Virus record (IMG/VR): IMGVR_UViG_2541047432_000013
Coordinates: 1-4,202 of that record
From: a virus
Taxonomy: Duplodnaviria; Heunggongvirae; Uroviricota; Caudoviricetes
Length of the DNA stretch: 4,202 nt
Strand: one strand, 5' to 3'
Below are positions 1 to 4,195 of the stretch, piece after piece; the first letter of the stretch is position 1, and each line of letters opens with the position of its first letter. Both the position numbers and the translations under genes were made by a program. Under the pieces are notes generated by a model. The model had not been told where the DNA came from, ran no database searches, and saw only the letters and a list, made by a program, of their open reading frames with translations.

Positions 1-116
1 GTCTGGCCGGTTCGGATTCGTACCTCGCAGAGGTCTTTCCTCGTTACCAGTGCCGTCACTATGACGGTTAAACAGATGACGATCAGGGCGATTAACATCG
101 CCTTTTGCTGCTTCAT
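1..116 (-). CDS. hokD: Hok/Gef-family type I toxin (small membrane-depolarising peptide); N-terminal 38 codons present, 3' end runs off the window start
   Basis: Minus-strand ATG at 116-114 translates to MKQQKAMLIALIVICLTVIVTALVTRKDLCEVRIRTGQT..., the Hok/Gef signature (hydrophobic TM segment then conserved RKDLCE). It matches HokD/RelF as I recall it; family call is firm, paralog call is from memory. AGGAG lies 9-10 nt upstream of the ATG. Confidence 0.85.
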   Translation of the reverse strand, partial: MKQQKAMLIALIVICLTVIVTALVTRKDLCEVRIRTGQ

Positions 117-173
117 AGCCTGCTTCTCCTTGCCTTTCGGCACGTAAGAGGCTAACCTACATGTGTTCAGCAT
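1..173 (-). CDS. mok-like overlapping regulatory ORF (in-frame 19-codon N-terminal extension of hok), partial
   Basis: In-frame upstream ATG at 173-171 gives MLNTCRLASYVPKGKEKQA before the Hok Met. The MLNTCR start resembles chromosomal Mok proteins (MokC, from memory). GAGG lies 8 nt upstream. No alternative-frame ORF with a start codon overlaps hok. Confidence 0.5.
   Translation of the reverse strand, partial: MLNTCRLASYVPKGKEKQAMKQQKAMLIALIVICLTVIVTALVTRKDLCEVRIRTGQ
130..158 (+). promoter_or_regulatory. Candidate sigma70 promoter for a Sok-like antisense RNA
   Basis: TTGCCT (130-135), 17-bp spacer, TAACCT (153-158) on the plus strand, antisense to the mok translation initiation region. 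The -10 is weak; this is a prediction only. Confidence 0.3.
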
Positions 174-243
174 GGATTGAGCCTCAGATTAATGTTAAGC
201 GTCTTGCAGGACGCGTAATGTTAACTGGGGCTTTTCTCTATCT
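165..243 (+). ncRNA. Predicted Sok-like antisense RNA covering the mok SD and start codon, ending in a terminator-like structure
   Basis: Plus-strand region complementary to the mok SD and ATG. Outer stem GCCTCAG (181-187) pairs with CTGGGGC (225-231) including one G-U pair; inner stem GCGTC/GACGC (199-214); then T-rich tract TTTTCTCTATCT (232-243). Ends are approximate. Confidence 0.3.
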
Positions 244-291
244 GCCGTTGGTGTTCATGCCCGAGGCAGATAGCCTCAAGCACCCGCAGCA

Positions 292-965: not shown

Positions 966-1184
966 TCAGTTTTCCTTATACGGATTAATTTTATTGTGCA
1001 GTGCGCTGAATGATTCCCATGTCACATCGGTATATAGCTCAATAACTGGTTCAAATGTCCTTCCAATTATCCAGACCAGTAATAGCGGGGATATCGGTAT
1101 CATCAACACTATAAACAGAATGAAAAACAGAAACTCTGTTGTTCTGCTCTTTCGTGGGTAATTTTTTTCTAAATAATGTTTCAT
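966..1184 (-). CDS. Small single-pass membrane protein (72 aa), AT-rich moron-like gene
   Basis: ATG at 1184. One predicted TM helix (FLFFILFIVLMIPISPLLLVWIIG) after a basic N-terminus (KNYPRKSR). About 35% GC by hand count versus roughly 55-60% in the replication genes. Confidence 0.6.
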   Translation of the reverse strand: MKHYLEKNYPRKSRTTEFLFFILFIVLMIPISPLLLVWIIGRTFEPVIELYTDVTWESFSALHNKINPYKEN

Positions 1185-1212
1185 TTCTTACCGCCCTTTC
1201 GGGCGGCCTCCT
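1185..1212 (-). promoter_or_regulatory. SD - GC hairpin - start codon arrangement upstream of the membrane-protein gene
   Basis: Minus strand reads AGGAGG-CCGCCC-GAAA-GGGCGG-TAAGAA-ATG: a perfect 6-bp GC stem with GAAA tetraloop sits between a consensus SD and the ATG. Linear spacing is 22 nt, about 6 nt if the hairpin folds. Confidence 0.45.
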
Positions 1213-1311
1213 GATGTTCTGAGGGTGCAGGAATCCCTCCGGTTAAGGATTTAATAAAAATCGTTTCTGATTTAAATCTTCAGTATTTAGTTGTTAGTTG
1301 GTTTATCGCCT

Positions 1312-1623
1312 TTATGCTTCAGCCTTATTTCGCAACCAGACACAAACCGGGCCATCTTCCGTATCATGAATGGAACCAATAAACCAGCCATCGCCCTCTG
1401 GTCGTTCCGGTTCCCATGCAGAAATATCAGCATCACACGCATCAAGGTCAGCACATCCTTCATCTCTGAAGCAGAGGACGTATTGAAGATTATTTTCCTC
1501 CATCCAGGCGTTAAACTCTTCCGTTGAAATATATTCCCGACCATCACAGAATTTTTCATATTCAGGATGCGTCCAGCAGCCATATTCATTACGTTCCACT
1601 GGCATTTCTTTAATTACGCTCAT
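1312..1623 (-). CDS. Highly acidic small phage protein (103 aa), function unknown
   Basis: ATG at 1623 with GGGGG 3 nt upstream. ATGA overlap with the stop of the upstream ORF. 16 Glu + 9 Asp versus 8 Lys/Arg (hand count), 5 Trp, 6 Cys. Confidence 0.7.
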   Translation of the reverse strand: MSVIKEMPVERNEYGCWTHPEYEKFCDGREYISTEEFNAWMEENNLQYVLCFRDEGCADLDACDADISAWEPERPEGDGWFIGSIHDTEDGPVCVWLRNKAEA

Positions 1624-1808
1624 TTACCCCCCTTATTTAATTTTCTACGACACTTTTTACAATCATCTGGACTTTCGAATGTATCCGGCTCACGCTCATT
1701 GCCAAAATACATCCACCCACCGCAAATACTTGTTATTTCACCTTCAGCAAAATAATGATGTTTTTTCGCCATAAGTGGCCTTGCCCAGCCCGGATTCGTT
1801 TTACTCAC
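1620..1808 (-). CDS. Small Cys/His-containing protein (62 aa), possible zinc ribbon, function unknown
   Basis: GTG start at 1808 preceded by AAGGAGG with a 6-nt spacer. GTGA overlap with the upstream stop. HH at residues 17-18, Cys29 and C50-x-x-C53, basic C-terminal tail. Confidence 0.6.
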   Translation of the reverse strand: MSKTNPGWARPLMAKKHHYFAEGEITSICGGWMYFGNEREPDTFESPDDCKKCRRKLNKGGK

Positions 1809-3147: not shown

Positions 3148-3810
3148 TCAAATAAAACCAGCTGCCTTCCGGCGTTCGTATTCCTGTTTCAGCCGTTCAA
3201 TTGGCGTTGGCCCTTGCGGGTGTTTCGCCCCTTCCAGTTGTCGTCGCACTGGCGGAACACTCATCCCGTTACCAACATGCTTTGCCCATTTCGTCAGTTG
3301 CCGTTCCGCAAGTCGTTTTAACTCACCTTGCGTCATCTGGCGCTCAATCCCTCTGGTACGCATTTCGAGGCAGATGTGGTACAGCACAGGCTGTGGCCAC
3401 GGGTATTTATCACTCCCGTCGTATCGCCAGGATTCATTGCGCCAGCGCCGGTACTCTTCCATCACGGCATCCACCGTAAGACCAAATGGATTTGCCCCAC
3501 TCTCCGAAATCAGCGCAACAAACTCAGCCAGGTCCGGGGGCCACGTTTCACCCGCCCGGCAGCGGTCCATGCACTGACGGCACACCAGACGGATTTGCTG
3601 TTCAGTCATCGCACCAATCTGGGCAATCCAGAGCTTCGAAGGTGCGGCCCCGTTCTTCTGAGTCCAGCGGTTCGAATACACCTCCCCCATGAGCTCCCAC
3701 AGCTTCCAGGCCGTTTCCGTTGCTGATAAATCCGTTGTCACGTTCCCACTGTTCGCGTGCAGCCCGGATTTCCTGAACTGCCCGTGATGCCGTGCCACCT
3801 GATGCTGCAT
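3148..3810 (-). CDS. Lambda P-like replication protein (replicative helicase loader); start codon uncertain
   Basis: Resembles lambda P as I recall it: TWPPDLAEFVALI versus PFLPSPGQFVAWC, and YPWPQPVLYHICLEMRTRGIERQMTQGELKRLAERQL versus YPWKSNAHYWLVTNLYQNMRANALTDAELRRKAADEL. ATG 3810 has a G-rich SD; alternative ATG at 3690 has GGGAG 3 nt upstream. Confidence 0.8.
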   Translation of the reverse strand: MQHQVARHHGQFRKSGLHANSGNVTTDLSATETAWKLWELMGEVYSNRWTQKNGAAPSKLWIAQIGAMTEQQIRLVCRQCMDRCRAGETWPPDLAEFVALISESGANPFGLTVDAVMEEYRRWRNESWRYDGSDKYPWPQPVLYHICLEMRTRGIERQMTQGELKRLAERQLTKWAKHVGNGMSVPPVRRQLEGAKHPQGPTPIERLKQEYERRKAAGFI

Positions 3811-4195
3811 GGCTTCCCCCCTTGCTGACTGGTTTTACCTGTGCCCTGACGTGCTGCACGTGGCGGGCAAATTTCTGCTCCCACTGAACCTGCGTGAAAA
3901 CCTTCCCCTCCGCCATCCAGTAATCCCGGAATGCGGCAAGCTCAGCAGGTGTAAATTCCGGCTCAGGCAGAGCCATACCCCACACTGCTGCCCGTTGTCG
4001 AAAATCCGGCGACGGCTGCCAGACAGTAGTCATCGAAAATTTCCCGATCGGTTCGCTCAGGCCGTCCAGGTATTCAGGTTCGGCTGTCTGCAACGGCGCG
4101 TCATTCGACTCACTGGTCGTAGTACTCTCGCGCGCGTTATGTGTGGGGTTTAATTCTTTATCTGTATCTGTATCTGTCGTGATTTGTCGTGACAT
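3602..4195 (-). CDS. DnaT-domain replication-initiator-like protein (phi80/Gifsy-type replication protein); 5' end may extend beyond the window
   Basis: GKFSMTTVWQPSPDFRQRAAVWGMALPEPEFTPAELAAFRDYWMAEGKVFTQVQWEQKFARHV matches the E. coli DnaT C-terminal domain ([29 protein letters not shown]...[23 protein letters not shown], recalled). Frame is open from ATG 4195 to the window end, so the true start cannot be fixed. Confidence 0.8.
   Translation of the reverse strand: MSRQITTDTDTDKELNPTHNARESTTTSESNDAPLQTAEPEYLDGLSEPIGKFSMTTVWQPSPDFRQRAAVWGMALPEPEFTPAELAAFRDYWMAEGKVFTQVQWEQKFARHVQHVRAQVKPVSKGGSHAASGGTASRAVQEIRAAREQWERDNGFISNGNGLEAVGAHGGGVFEPLDSEERGRTFEALDCPDWCDD
4160..4192. repeat. Short tandem repeats at the 5' end of the DnaT-like ORF
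   Basis: ATCTGT x3 (4160-4177) followed by GTCGTGA x2 at 10-bp spacing (4176-4182, 4186-4192). Encodes (TD)3 on the minus strand. Confidence 0.6.

What the first reader, a model, noticed from the sequence alone, without database searches (positions are those of the whole stretch)
1312..1623. Highly acidic 103-aa protein: candidate DNA mimic or anti-defence factor
The protein has about 25 acidic against 8 basic residues (net charge near -17) and is rich in Trp and Cys. Small, strongly acidic phage proteins in early operons are often DNA mimics that inhibit restriction or other DNA-binding defences. I find no recognisable family, so this is inference from composition and context.
Basis: inference. 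Interest (0 to 1): 0.6.

Follow-up and report, generated by a model that had tools for sequence, protein, structure and literature searches.

The report
Acidic early phage protein, orf184 family
This is a real, strongly acidic 103-residue early prophage protein from a widespread family of unknown biochemical function, one member of which ("orf184" of phage mEp213) has been shown to set off a bacterial suicide defence; whether it mimics DNA remains unproven.

Summary
Window 1312-1623 on the minus strand encodes a 103-aa protein with 25 acidic and 8 basic residues (net -17, pI 4.1), 5 Trp and 6 Cys. It has a strong ribosome-binding site, an ATGA overlap with the upstream gene, and dN/dS of 0.11-0.28.

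It has no Pfam, NCBIfam or PADLOC match, but it does belong to a family:
- It matches PHROG 1372, and a profile search finds 928 cluster representatives.
- Relatives occur in phages of Gamma- and Betaproteobacteria, in 16% of complete E. coli genomes, and in about 2000 mostly conjugative plasmids.
- Acidity is a family trait (mean -13.7). Cys richness is not.
- The charge is spread evenly over the surface. The main conserved, exposed polar element is an acidic hairpin, H-D-T-E-D-G.

The key evidence comes from the literature. A 44%-identical member, mEp213 gp45 ("orf184"; Silas et al. 2023), triggers cell death through the gop-beta-cII abortive-infection system. It lies in the accessory region that holds the anti-restriction gene ral in other phages. 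It was not reported as a counter-defence gene in that screen.

Best reading: an early accessory protein that binds a host or defence factor and is sensed by gop-beta-cII. DNA mimicry is possible but unsupported.

The parts
1312..1623 (-). Coding sequence of the 103-aa acidic protein (ATG at 1623-1621, TAA at 1314-1312)
   Evidence: ORF list; composition; phrog_1372 at E 1.9e-55; dN/dS 0.11-0.28; 44% identical to orf184 of mEp213, E 3e-30
1627..1634 (-). Shine-Dalgarno sequence AAGGGGGG, 3 nt upstream of the ATG, lying inside the end of the upstream ORF
   Evidence: Read from the sequence
1620..1623 (-). ATGA overlap between this gene's start codon and the stop codon of the upstream 62-aa ORF (1620-1808), suggesting translational coupling within one early transcript
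   Evidence: Coordinates and sequence; promoter- and terminator-like sites in 900-2500 do not exceed chance
1564..1599 (-). Codons for the N-terminal family motif V-E-R-N-E-Y-G-C-W-T-H-P (residues 9-20). R11, G15, W17, H19 and P20 are 89-100% conserved
   Evidence: Alignment A1; conservation over 140 representative domains
1426..1467 (-). Codons for the variable acidic loop (residues 53-66, RDEGCADLDACDAD). It has low model confidence, variable length across the family, and composition-level rather than position-level acidity
   Evidence: pLDDT below 50 at residues 56-60; insertions in the alignment; per-column acid fractions of 0.1-0.8
1330..1389 (-). Codons for the C-terminal signature G-W-F-I-G-S-I-H-D-T-E-D-G-P-V-C-V-W-L-R (residues 79-98). 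It forms a beta-hairpin whose tip, H-D-T-E-D-G, is the main conserved and solvent-exposed polar element
   Evidence: conservation; strands 80-88 and 91-99; exposure and geometry in the published orf184 model

Best explanation
The gene encodes an early-expressed accessory protein of a Rac-like lambdoid prophage. It belongs to the orf184/phrog_1372 family, a compact domain of about 100 residues with an antiparallel sheet and two or three helices and a strongly negative surface.

Proposed mechanism (inferred, not shown): soon after infection or induction the protein binds a host or defence protein. Binding would use its conserved acidic beta-hairpin (H-D-T-E-D-G) and the neighbouring conserved surface, helped by electrostatic attraction to a basic, probably nucleic-acid-binding, site. 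This would disable or redirect the target to the element's benefit.

In cells that carry the gop-beta-cII system of P4-like satellites, the protein or its effect is sensed and toxicity is released. That has been shown for the 44%-identical member orf184 and is inferred for this copy.

Shown here: the gene is real and under purifying selection; it belongs to the family; the acidity is conserved; the fold is an orphan; homologues sit in early accessory regions. Shown elsewhere: a homologue triggers gop-beta-cII. Inferred: the target-binding and counter-defence role, and that this copy behaves like orf184.
For: - Real gene: strong SD, ATGA coupling, dN/dS 0.11-0.28.
- Family membership: phrog_1372 at E 1.9e-55. 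orf184, the Salmonella homologue and the Klebsiella plasmid homologue hit the same PHROG. BLASTP to orf184 gives 44% identity, E 3e-30.
- Experiment on a member: orf184 activates gop-beta-cII toxicity in ECOR59 and in a reconstituted lab strain, and transposon suppressors map to beta and gop. gop-beta-cII protects against lambda and P1.
- Early accessory location in many elements: the nin-type region here and in O157:H7; N...cIII region in mEp213; directly after recE-recT and before xis-int in Salmonella; between cI/N and recombination genes or int in Erwinia, Klebsiella and Atlantibacter.
- Also found at the distal end of the tra operon of F-like conjugative plasmids.
- Conserved acidity: mean -13.7 over 141 representative domains.
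- The main conserved and exposed polar element is the acidic hairpin tip.
- One natural fusion to a Lar restriction-alleviation domain.
Against: - No member has a demonstrated target or counter-defence phenotype.
- In the 200-gene screen, orf184 is not among the genes that sensitised wild hosts to phage in the 45 phage-host combinations screened.
- The window protein is only 44% identical to orf184, so sensing by gop-beta-cII may not transfer.
- 59% of representative clusters carry the domain fused to other modules at either end: exonuclease, DHH phosphoesterase, wHTH, coiled coils. That pattern fits a targeting or adaptor module as well as it fits an inhibitor.
- A few members are barely acidic, at -2 to -5.
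- On plasmids the gene is not in the leading region, where anti-defence genes concentrate (leading-region biology from general knowledge).
Confidence: 0.45

Rival explanations
1. A true DNA mimic in the manner of Ocr or ArdA. Its carboxylates would imitate the phosphate backbone and competitively block a DNA-binding defence enzyme such as type I restriction-modification, BREX, RecBCD or McrBC.
For: Net -17 in 103 aa and pI 4.1. Acidity is conserved in the family. The size and the 41 x 33 x 23 A shape of the homologue model could cover about a turn of duplex. Location in regions that hold ral, and one fusion to Lar. Shared by phages and conjugative plasmids, as ArdA is (the ArdA distribution is general knowledge).
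Against: - No profile hit to Ocr, ArdA, ArdB/KlcA, Ral, Lar, Gam or Abc2 families.
- Carboxylates are distributed no differently from a random choice of exposed residues (p = 0.42), with no stripe or face.
- Most acidic positions are not conserved position by position.
- orf184 is not listed as triggering Ronin, which senses Ocr, ArdA and Aop1, nor as relieving restriction.
- mEp213 already carries abc2, which argues against an anti-RecBCD role there.
- Frequent fusion to nucleases is odd for a DNA competitor.
Confidence: 0.15
2. A protein-protein adaptor or targeting domain for phage and plasmid DNA-metabolism functions. It would dock on a conserved host replication, recombination or repair protein and recruit or regulate neighbouring or fused enzymes, rather than inhibit defence.
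For: - 83 of 141 representative domains are fused, at either terminus, to partners including an Rv2179c-like 3'-5' exonuclease, a DHH/DHHA1 phosphoesterase, a wHTH and Ead/Ea22-like coiled coils. There is also a tandem duplication.
- Standalone copies often lie beside recE-recT, rdgC, YqaJ/ERF or exonuclease genes.
- On F-like plasmids the gene is followed by a PLD-family protein (nuclease role assumed by analogy with Nuc, from memory).
- Near-invariant motifs across Beta- and Gammaproteobacteria suggest a conserved target.
Against: No single neighbour or partner is conserved; the upstream genes in six elements are unrelated. Early operons contain recombination genes anyway, so proximity is weak evidence. 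Most fusion partners have no annotation. This idea does not explain why an abortive-infection system senses orf184.
Confidence: 0.2
3. A regulator of host physiology or of the lysis-lysogeny decision, like the small exo-xis-region proteins of lambdoid phages, with no role in immunity.
For: In many prophages it sits in the leftward early operon between N/cI and xis-int, the same zone as ea22-type genes. Ead/Ea22-like genes are frequent neighbours or fusion partners.
Against: The family also occurs in phages annotated without lysogeny genes in the regions examined, and on conjugative plasmids, where the lysogeny decision is irrelevant. There is no fold similarity to solved exo-xis proteins in the PDB.
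Confidence: 0.1
4. A small-ligand or metal-binding protein, or a small enzyme, such as a sponge for an immune signalling nucleotide. It would use the conserved His, Trp, Arg and Asp residues.
For: H19, W17, W70, W80, R11 and R98 are near-invariant, and there is a conserved H-D-x-E-D turn. Some fusions are to phosphoesterase or exonuclease domains.
Against: - In the homologue model most conserved aromatics are buried core residues.
- The conserved acidic side chains of the hairpin are 6.7-9.4 A apart (computed by hand from the coordinates stored), so no preformed metal site is seen.
- The window's Cys are scattered and not conserved.
- A net charge of -17 disfavours nucleotide binding (inference).
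- No structural match to known sponges in the PDB.
Confidence: 0.07

Closest known systems
orf184 = gp45 of Enterobacteria phage mEp213 (AFM76385.1 / YP_007112388.1); Silas et al. 2023, bioRxiv 10.1101/2023.04.06.535777
   Same: Same family. 44% identity over the full length, E 3e-30. Both hit phrog_1372. Same signature motifs and the same net charge of -17. Same predicted topology. Both lie in early-operon accessory regions.
   Different: orf184 lies in the leftward N...cIII region, whereas the window gene lies in the rightward nin-type region after the replication genes. orf184 has a six-residue-longer, confidently helical insert where the window protein has a short Cys-rich loop of low confidence. 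Triggering of gop-beta-cII was shown only for orf184.
Ocr (T7 gp0.3), the archetypal DNA-mimic anti-restriction protein
   Same: Small, very acidic, expressed early; an accessory gene that can also trip abortive-infection sensors (Ocr properties from established knowledge).
ArdA (anti-restriction protein of conjugative plasmids and transposons)
   Same: Acidic; carried by both conjugative plasmids and phage-like elements (ArdA biology from established knowledge).
   Different: No profile or fold match. On F-like plasmids this gene lies at the distal end of the tra operon next to repA2, not in the leading region.
Ral (lambda) and Lar/RalR (Rac): restriction-alleviation genes of lambdoid early operons
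   Same: Occupies the same kinds of accessory slots: N...cIII in mEp213 and the position just after recT in Salmonella Rac-like prophages (the position of lar in K-12 Rac is from memory). One metagenomic protein fuses this domain to a Lar domain.
   Different: No sequence relationship. Ral and Lar act by modulating type I modification and restriction (established knowledge); nothing of the kind has been shown for this family.
Other phage accessory proteins that trigger abortive infection (Abc1 triggering P4, orf24 triggering the ECOR61 system, Ocr triggering PARIS)
   Same: Same operational class as orf184: a small early accessory protein whose expression alone activates a prophage- or satellite-encoded cell-death system.
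   Different: Unrelated sequences and folds. For Ocr the primary anti-defence function is known; for this family it is not.

Membership tests
orf184 / PHROG 1372 family | Significant full-length sequence similarity to orf184 and to the family profile | tested here: met
   phrog_1372 at E 1.9e-55 over residues 1-102. BLASTP to orf184: 44% identity, E 3e-30. orf184 itself hits phrog_1372 at E 1.5e-43.
orf184 / PHROG 1372 family | Signature motifs: R-D-x-x-G-x-W-x-H-P near the N-terminus and W-x-P-x-x-P-x-G-x-G-W-F-x-x-S-I-H-D-T-E-D-G-P-x-C-x-W-x-R at the C-terminus | tested here: met
   All positions are present in the window protein except N12 in place of D.
orf184 / PHROG 1372 family | Same predicted fold | tested here: met
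   Model of the window protein: pLDDT 82, pTM 0.73, element order b-a-a-b-(loop)-b-b. The published orf184 model has the same order and sheet pairing. BFVD relatives align at TM 0.6-0.86. Both are predictions, not experimental structures.
orf184 / PHROG 1372 family | Activates gop-beta-cII toxicity | not testable with these tools
   Shown only for orf184. It needs expression of the window gene in a gop-beta-cII host.
Ocr (Pfam Ocr family) | Profile match and all-helical elongated DNA-like dimer fold | tested here: not met
   No Pfam hit at E 0.1 or better. The model is alpha/beta. No PDB fold match. The oligomeric state was not testable.
ArdA | Profile match and three-domain ArdA fold | tested here: not met
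DNA-mimic proteins in general (a functional class, not a homologous family) | High density of surface negative charge | tested here: met
   Net -17 in 103 aa, pI 4.14; family mean -13.7.
DNA-mimic proteins in general (a functional class, not a homologous family) | Carboxylates arranged so as to imitate a phosphate backbone, and position-specific conservation of them | tested here: inconclusive
   In the orf184 model the carboxylates surround the whole molecule and are no more one-sided than a random choice of exposed residues (p = 0.42). Only about nine acidic positions are conserved, three of them in the hairpin tip. No explicit superposition on B-DNA was done, and the oligomeric state is unknown.
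DNA-mimic proteins in general (a functional class, not a homologous family) | Competes with DNA for a DNA-binding protein | not testable with these tools
   Requires biochemistry.
Lar / Ral restriction alleviation | Profile match to Lar_restr_allev or Ral | tested here: not met
   No hit for the window protein. The Lar domain is found only as a fusion partner in one distant relative.
DUF551 (encoded by the gene two genes downstream, 407-964) | Profile-profile similarity | tested here: not met
   hhalign probability 0.1%. An eyeballed resemblance of the hairpin region was not confirmed.
Anti-CRISPR AcrIE10 of Klebsiella plasmids | RHH domain plus Acr domain, with a solved structure | tested here: not met
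   The paper describes an RHH-Acr architecture with PDB entries. No PDB sequence or fold match to the window protein.

The most novel reading that the evidence does not exclude
The orf184/phrog_1372 domain is a new structural class of counter-defence or host-takeover effector, shared by temperate phages and F-like conjugative plasmids. Its conserved acidic hairpin would plug the nucleic-acid-binding site of a widespread host immunity or DNA-metabolism protein that has not yet been identified. gop-beta-cII would then be a guard or decoy that watches that same target. The window gene would be one allele of this effector.
Probability: 0.3. Interest if true: 0.7.

Novelty: new member of a known kind. 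Interest (0 to 1): 0.45.

Why it matters
The family is very common. A profile search finds 928 cluster representatives. Relatives occur in 16% of complete E. coli genomes, in one of the commonest Salmonella prophage arrangements, and in about 2000 plasmid records, mostly conjugative Klebsiella plasmids. Yet it has no Pfam entry, no structural relatives and no known biochemical function.

Its only experimental handle is that one member trips the gop-beta-cII abortive-infection system. Finding what these proteins bind would explain what gop-beta-cII senses. It could also reveal a target that phages and resistance plasmids both need to neutralise. For this particular window the finding is a further, ordinary member of that family, not a new kind of system.

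Tried and rejected
- Pfam, NCBIfam and PADLOC scans of the protein: nothing.
- PDB sequence profile search: only noise, best E 0.83.
- A conserved partner gene (toxin-immunity idea, prompted by the DUF2726 protein upstream on Klebsiella plasmids): rejected. The upstream genes in six elements are unrelated, and neighbours vary.
- Relationship to DUF551: rejected, hhalign probability 0.1%.
- Zn or Cys cluster: rejected. The Cys are not conserved and lie 7-30 A apart in the homologue model.
- Identity with the Klebsiella plasmid anti-CRISPR AcrIE10: rejected.
- A Gam- or Abc2-like RecBCD inhibitor, suggested by adjacency to recT: weakened, because mEp213 carries abc2 as well.
- Plasmid leading-region anti-defence island: rejected. 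The gene lies between traX/finO and repA2.
- Annotating the fusion partners: mostly failed. Only DHH/DHHA1, an Rv2179c-like exonuclease, Lar and a wHTH were recognised.
- Accession and PHROG-id searches of the literature: nothing. A peptide-motif search of the main texts also found nothing. The same motif searched in the supplements of Silas et al. gave the orf184 link.
- The viral-contig scan returned only near-identical Rac-like loci and added no diversity.
- An explicit carboxylate-to-phosphate superposition on B-DNA was considered and not run. Its power would be low on a predicted monomer of unknown oligomeric state.

Full report
OBSERVATION. Its product is MSVIKEMPVERNEYGCWTHPEYEKFCDGREYISTEEFNAWMEENNLQYVLCFRDEGCADLDACDADISAWEPERPEGDGWFIGSIHDTEDGPVCVWLRNKAEA. 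It has 9 Asp + 16 Glu against 3 Lys + 5 Arg (net -17), pI 4.14, 5 Trp and 6 Cys. It is the most acidic of the nine minus-strand ORFs in the window.

IS IT A GENE? Yes.
- An AAGGGGGG Shine-Dalgarno sequence lies 3 nt before the ATG. The ATG overlaps the TGA of the upstream 62-aa ORF as ATGA.
- No promoter- or terminator-like site above chance lies nearby, so the gene is an internal cistron of a polycistronic early transcript.
- Pairwise dN/dS against the orthologues in E. coli O157:H7, phage Rac-SA53 and phage D6 is 0.11-0.28.

CONTEXT IN THE WINDOW. The window is part of a Rac-like lambdoid prophage. It is 98% identical, over 80% of its length, to a prophage of E. coli O157:H7. All genes run on the minus strand, in this order:
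- DnaT-like (ydaU-type) gene
- lambda-P-like loader
- DUF1627 (ydaW)
- a 74-aa ORF
- a 118-aa Ead/Ea22-like ORF
- a 62-aa ORF
- the target
- DUF4014
- DUF551
- hok/sok
In the O157:H7 prophage this block lies between the replication genes and RusA and later genes. That is the counterpart of lambda's nin region, which is delayed-early and pR-driven (lambda map from established knowledge).

THE FAMILY. Pfam, NCBIfam and PADLOC give nothing. PHROGs gives phrog_1372, of unknown function, at E 1.9e-55.
- A word-indexed search found 151 clusters, all named 'hypothetical' or 'prophage protein'.
- A full profile search found 928 cluster representatives at E 1e-3 or better.
- tblastn finds members in 80 phage records from Escherichia, Salmonella, Klebsiella, Erwinia, Yersinia, Pectobacterium, Vibrio, Pseudomonas, Burkholderia, Acinetobacter and Variovorax.
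- Members occur in 2041 plasmid records, 1761 of them conjugative and 1499 from Klebsiella.
- 887 of 5426 complete E. coli genomes carry a DNA-level relative, with up to four copies each.

WHAT IS CONSERVED. I aligned 140 domains from the top-scoring representatives to the family profile.
- Near-invariant positions are R11, G15, W17, H19, P20, W70, P72, P75, G77, G79, W80, F81, I85, G91, W96 and R98.
- The segment S84-I-H-D-T-E-D-G-P-x-C94 is 75-96% conserved.
- Net charge of the domain averages -13.7 (range -21 to -2), so acidity is a family trait.
- Only about nine acidic positions are conserved as such: 12, 30, 36, 47, 54, 56, 87, 89 and 90. The rest of the charge is compositional. Much of it lies in a loop of variable length, residues 53-66.
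- Cys richness is peculiar to this lineage. Only C94 is conserved.

STRUCTURE. AlphaFold2 with the 38-sequence alignment gives pLDDT 82 and pTM 0.73. The elements are strand 16-17, helices 20-26 and 34-43, strand 46-52, a low-confidence loop, and a hairpin of strands 80-88 and 91-99.
- Foldseek against the PDB has a best E of 0.67.
- BFVD returns only uncharacterised family members.
So there is no resemblance to Ocr, ArdA, Ugi, Arn, Gam, gp5.9, known anti-CRISPRs or any other solved fold.

Silas et al. deposited their AlphaFold model of the homologue orf184 as text. I read it and analysed the CA, CB and terminal side-chain atoms.
- The model has an antiparallel sheet of order b0-b1-b3-b4-b2, with two helices and an inserted third one. 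Its size is 41 x 33 x 23 A.
- It has 23 acidic and 6 basic residues. Their carboxylates surround the whole molecule. The acidic centroid is no more off-centre than for random sets of exposed residues (p = 0.42).
- Most conserved residues are core, such as W73, P75, P95, C97, I88 and W99 in orf184 numbering.
- The main conserved and exposed polar element is the hairpin tip H-D-T-E-D-G, together with the conserved Arg and His of the N-terminal strand.
- The window protein's six Cys map to positions 7-30 A apart, so no metal cluster is indicated.

THE KEY LITERATURE LINK. Searching supplements for the peptide motif found the family in Silas et al. 2023 (bioRxiv 10.1101/2023.04.06.535777). The entry is 'UDP0184 / orf184', AFM76385.1 of phage mEp213. 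This is the same gene as my tblastn hit H33. It is 44% identical to the window protein, E 3e-30.
- The authors synthesised 200 accessory genes from hypervariable 'accessory regions' of enterobacteriophages and expressed them in wild E. coli.
[quoted passage not shown] They reconstituted the effect in a lab strain.
- Transposon suppressors hit 'protein beta' and 'protein gop'.
- orf184 is not among the genes reported to sensitise hosts to phage, which were Ocr, Ral, ArdA, six novel genes and IpII.
- It is not among the triggers of Ronin, the decoy that senses Ocr, ArdA and Aop1.
- I found no later paper on the trigger.

WHERE HOMOLOGUES SIT. There is no conserved partner. The upstream genes in the window, O157:H7, Rac-SA53, D6, PY54 and the Klebsiella plasmid are mutually unrelated. 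The neighbourhood type, however, is constant: an early operon among accessory genes.
- mEp213: cI, N..., gp46, orf184, gp44, cIII, kil, erf, abc2.
- Salmonella, a very common arrangement: recE, recT, homologue, two unknown genes, xis, int.
- Erwinia: cI, N, unknown, homologue..., YqaJ or ERF.
- Klebsiella michiganensis: cI, YfdP, DUF2303..., homologue..., Rv2179c-like exonuclease, int.
- Atlantibacter and Ewingella: downstream of rdgC.
- PY54: near a Lar-like gene and exonucleases.
- P1-like D6: before a metallophosphoesterase.
- F-like plasmids of Klebsiella, Enterobacter and Citrobacter: between traX/finO and a PLD-family protein followed by repA2 in the Klebsiella and Citrobacter plasmids; the downstream gene in the Enterobacter record is unnamed. 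This is the distal end of the tra operon, not the leading region.

FUSIONS. Of 141 representative domain copies, 83 are part of longer proteins, with the domain at either end. Recognisable partners are a DHH/DHHA1 phosphoesterase, an Rv2179c-like 3'-5' exonuclease, a Lar restriction-alleviation domain, a winged helix and Ead/Ea22-like coiled coils. One protein carries two copies in tandem. Most partners are unannotated. Some fusions may be gene-calling run-ons, but their variety shows that the domain is an autonomous module.

INTERPRETATION. Four things are shown.
- The gene is real, expressed early and under constraint.
- It belongs to the orf184/phrog_1372 family.
- The family is acidic, has an orphan fold, and is shared by phages and conjugative plasmids.
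- One member is sufficient to activate an abortive-infection system.

From these I infer that the protein acts on a host or defence factor early in infection. I place the likely contact surface at the conserved acidic hairpin. I also infer that gop-beta-cII senses this action or the protein itself. I put this at about 0.45.

The specific DNA-mimic reading is not excluded. The charge density is in the range of known mimics, the oligomeric state is unknown, and the published screen covered a limited set of hosts. It lacks positive support, though, and several observations count against an Ocr/ArdA-like role, so I put it at about 0.15. An adaptor role for DNA-metabolism enzymes (about 0.2) explains the fusions and the recombination-gene neighbours. 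It does not explain the sensing by gop-beta-cII. A host-physiology regulator (about 0.1) and a ligand-binding or enzymatic role (about 0.07) are less likely.

NOVELTY. The family has already been seen and one member tested, so this copy is a new member of a known but mechanistically unsolved kind. The finding does not reveal a new system. Its value is that it points to a very common orphan family with a ready experimental handle.

Noticed in passing
window 1-285, minus strand: A hok/sok-type toxin-antitoxin locus. Rfam sok antitoxin RNA matches at 111-285 (113.5 bits). A Hok/Gef-family ORF starts near 116 and runs off the window's left end; it is annotated as Hok/Gef in the O157:H7 prophage.
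   Followed up: partly
window 1620-1808, minus strand: The upstream, translationally coupled 62-aa ORF is basic (pI 9.2), carries C...CxxC-type cysteines, and matches only phrog_2358, of unknown function. It and the 118-aa Ead/Ea22-like ORF (1805-2161) are absent from the closest O157:H7 prophage. There a homologue of the window's 74-aa ORF directly precedes the target. This is local mosaicism.
   Followed up: partly
window 1185-1215, minus strand: Between the target and the DUF4014 gene lies a perfect hairpin, CCGCCC-GAAA-GGGCGG (1191-1206). It sits between an AGGAGG sequence and the DUF4014 start codon and has no T-run, so it is not an intrinsic terminator. It may bring the Shine-Dalgarno sequence close to the start codon or otherwise modulate translation.
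   Followed up: no
L003 (Klebsiella plasmid NZ_CP025006.1) 10002-12964; also L008 and L009: On F-like plasmids the homologue lies in a block finO - PIN-domain protein - unknown - DUF2726 (a PD-(D/E)XK-superfamily protein, here with an N-terminal hydrophobic segment) - homologue (4-bp overlap) - PLD-family protein - repA2. The PLD gene follows the homologue in three different plasmid lineages, with one small ORF between them in the Enterobacter plasmid. The function of the block is unknown.
   Followed up: partly
P0133 (305 aa), P0173, P0192, P0247 (metagenomic relatives): Natural fusions of the domain: a tandem duplication (P0133), which hints that the domain may work as a dimer; a DHH/DHHA1 phosphoesterase (P0173); an Rv2179c-like exonuclease (P0192); and a Lar restriction-alleviation domain (P0247).
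   Followed up: partly
window 3148-3810 and 3602-4195, minus strand: The longest ORF for the lambda-P-like loader (220 aa) overlaps the DnaT-like ORF by about 200 nt. RefSeq annotates the orthologue as a 153-aa product (462-nt CDS) that starts 8 nt before the DnaT-like gene's stop codon. The true start is therefore probably internal, near 3609.
   Followed up: no
window 966-1184, minus strand: The DUF4014 protein just downstream matches phrog_1832. That PHROG carries the unusual label 'released from the phage upon host infection'. This seems odd for a gene in an early-region block.
   Followed up: no
L011 (IMG/VR contig IMGVR_UViG_2541047097_000020, 4265 bp): An IMG/VR contig encodes a protein 100% identical to the target and has nearly the same length as the window. 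It is not an exact superstring of the window. It is probably the same or a sister prophage fragment.
   Followed up: no
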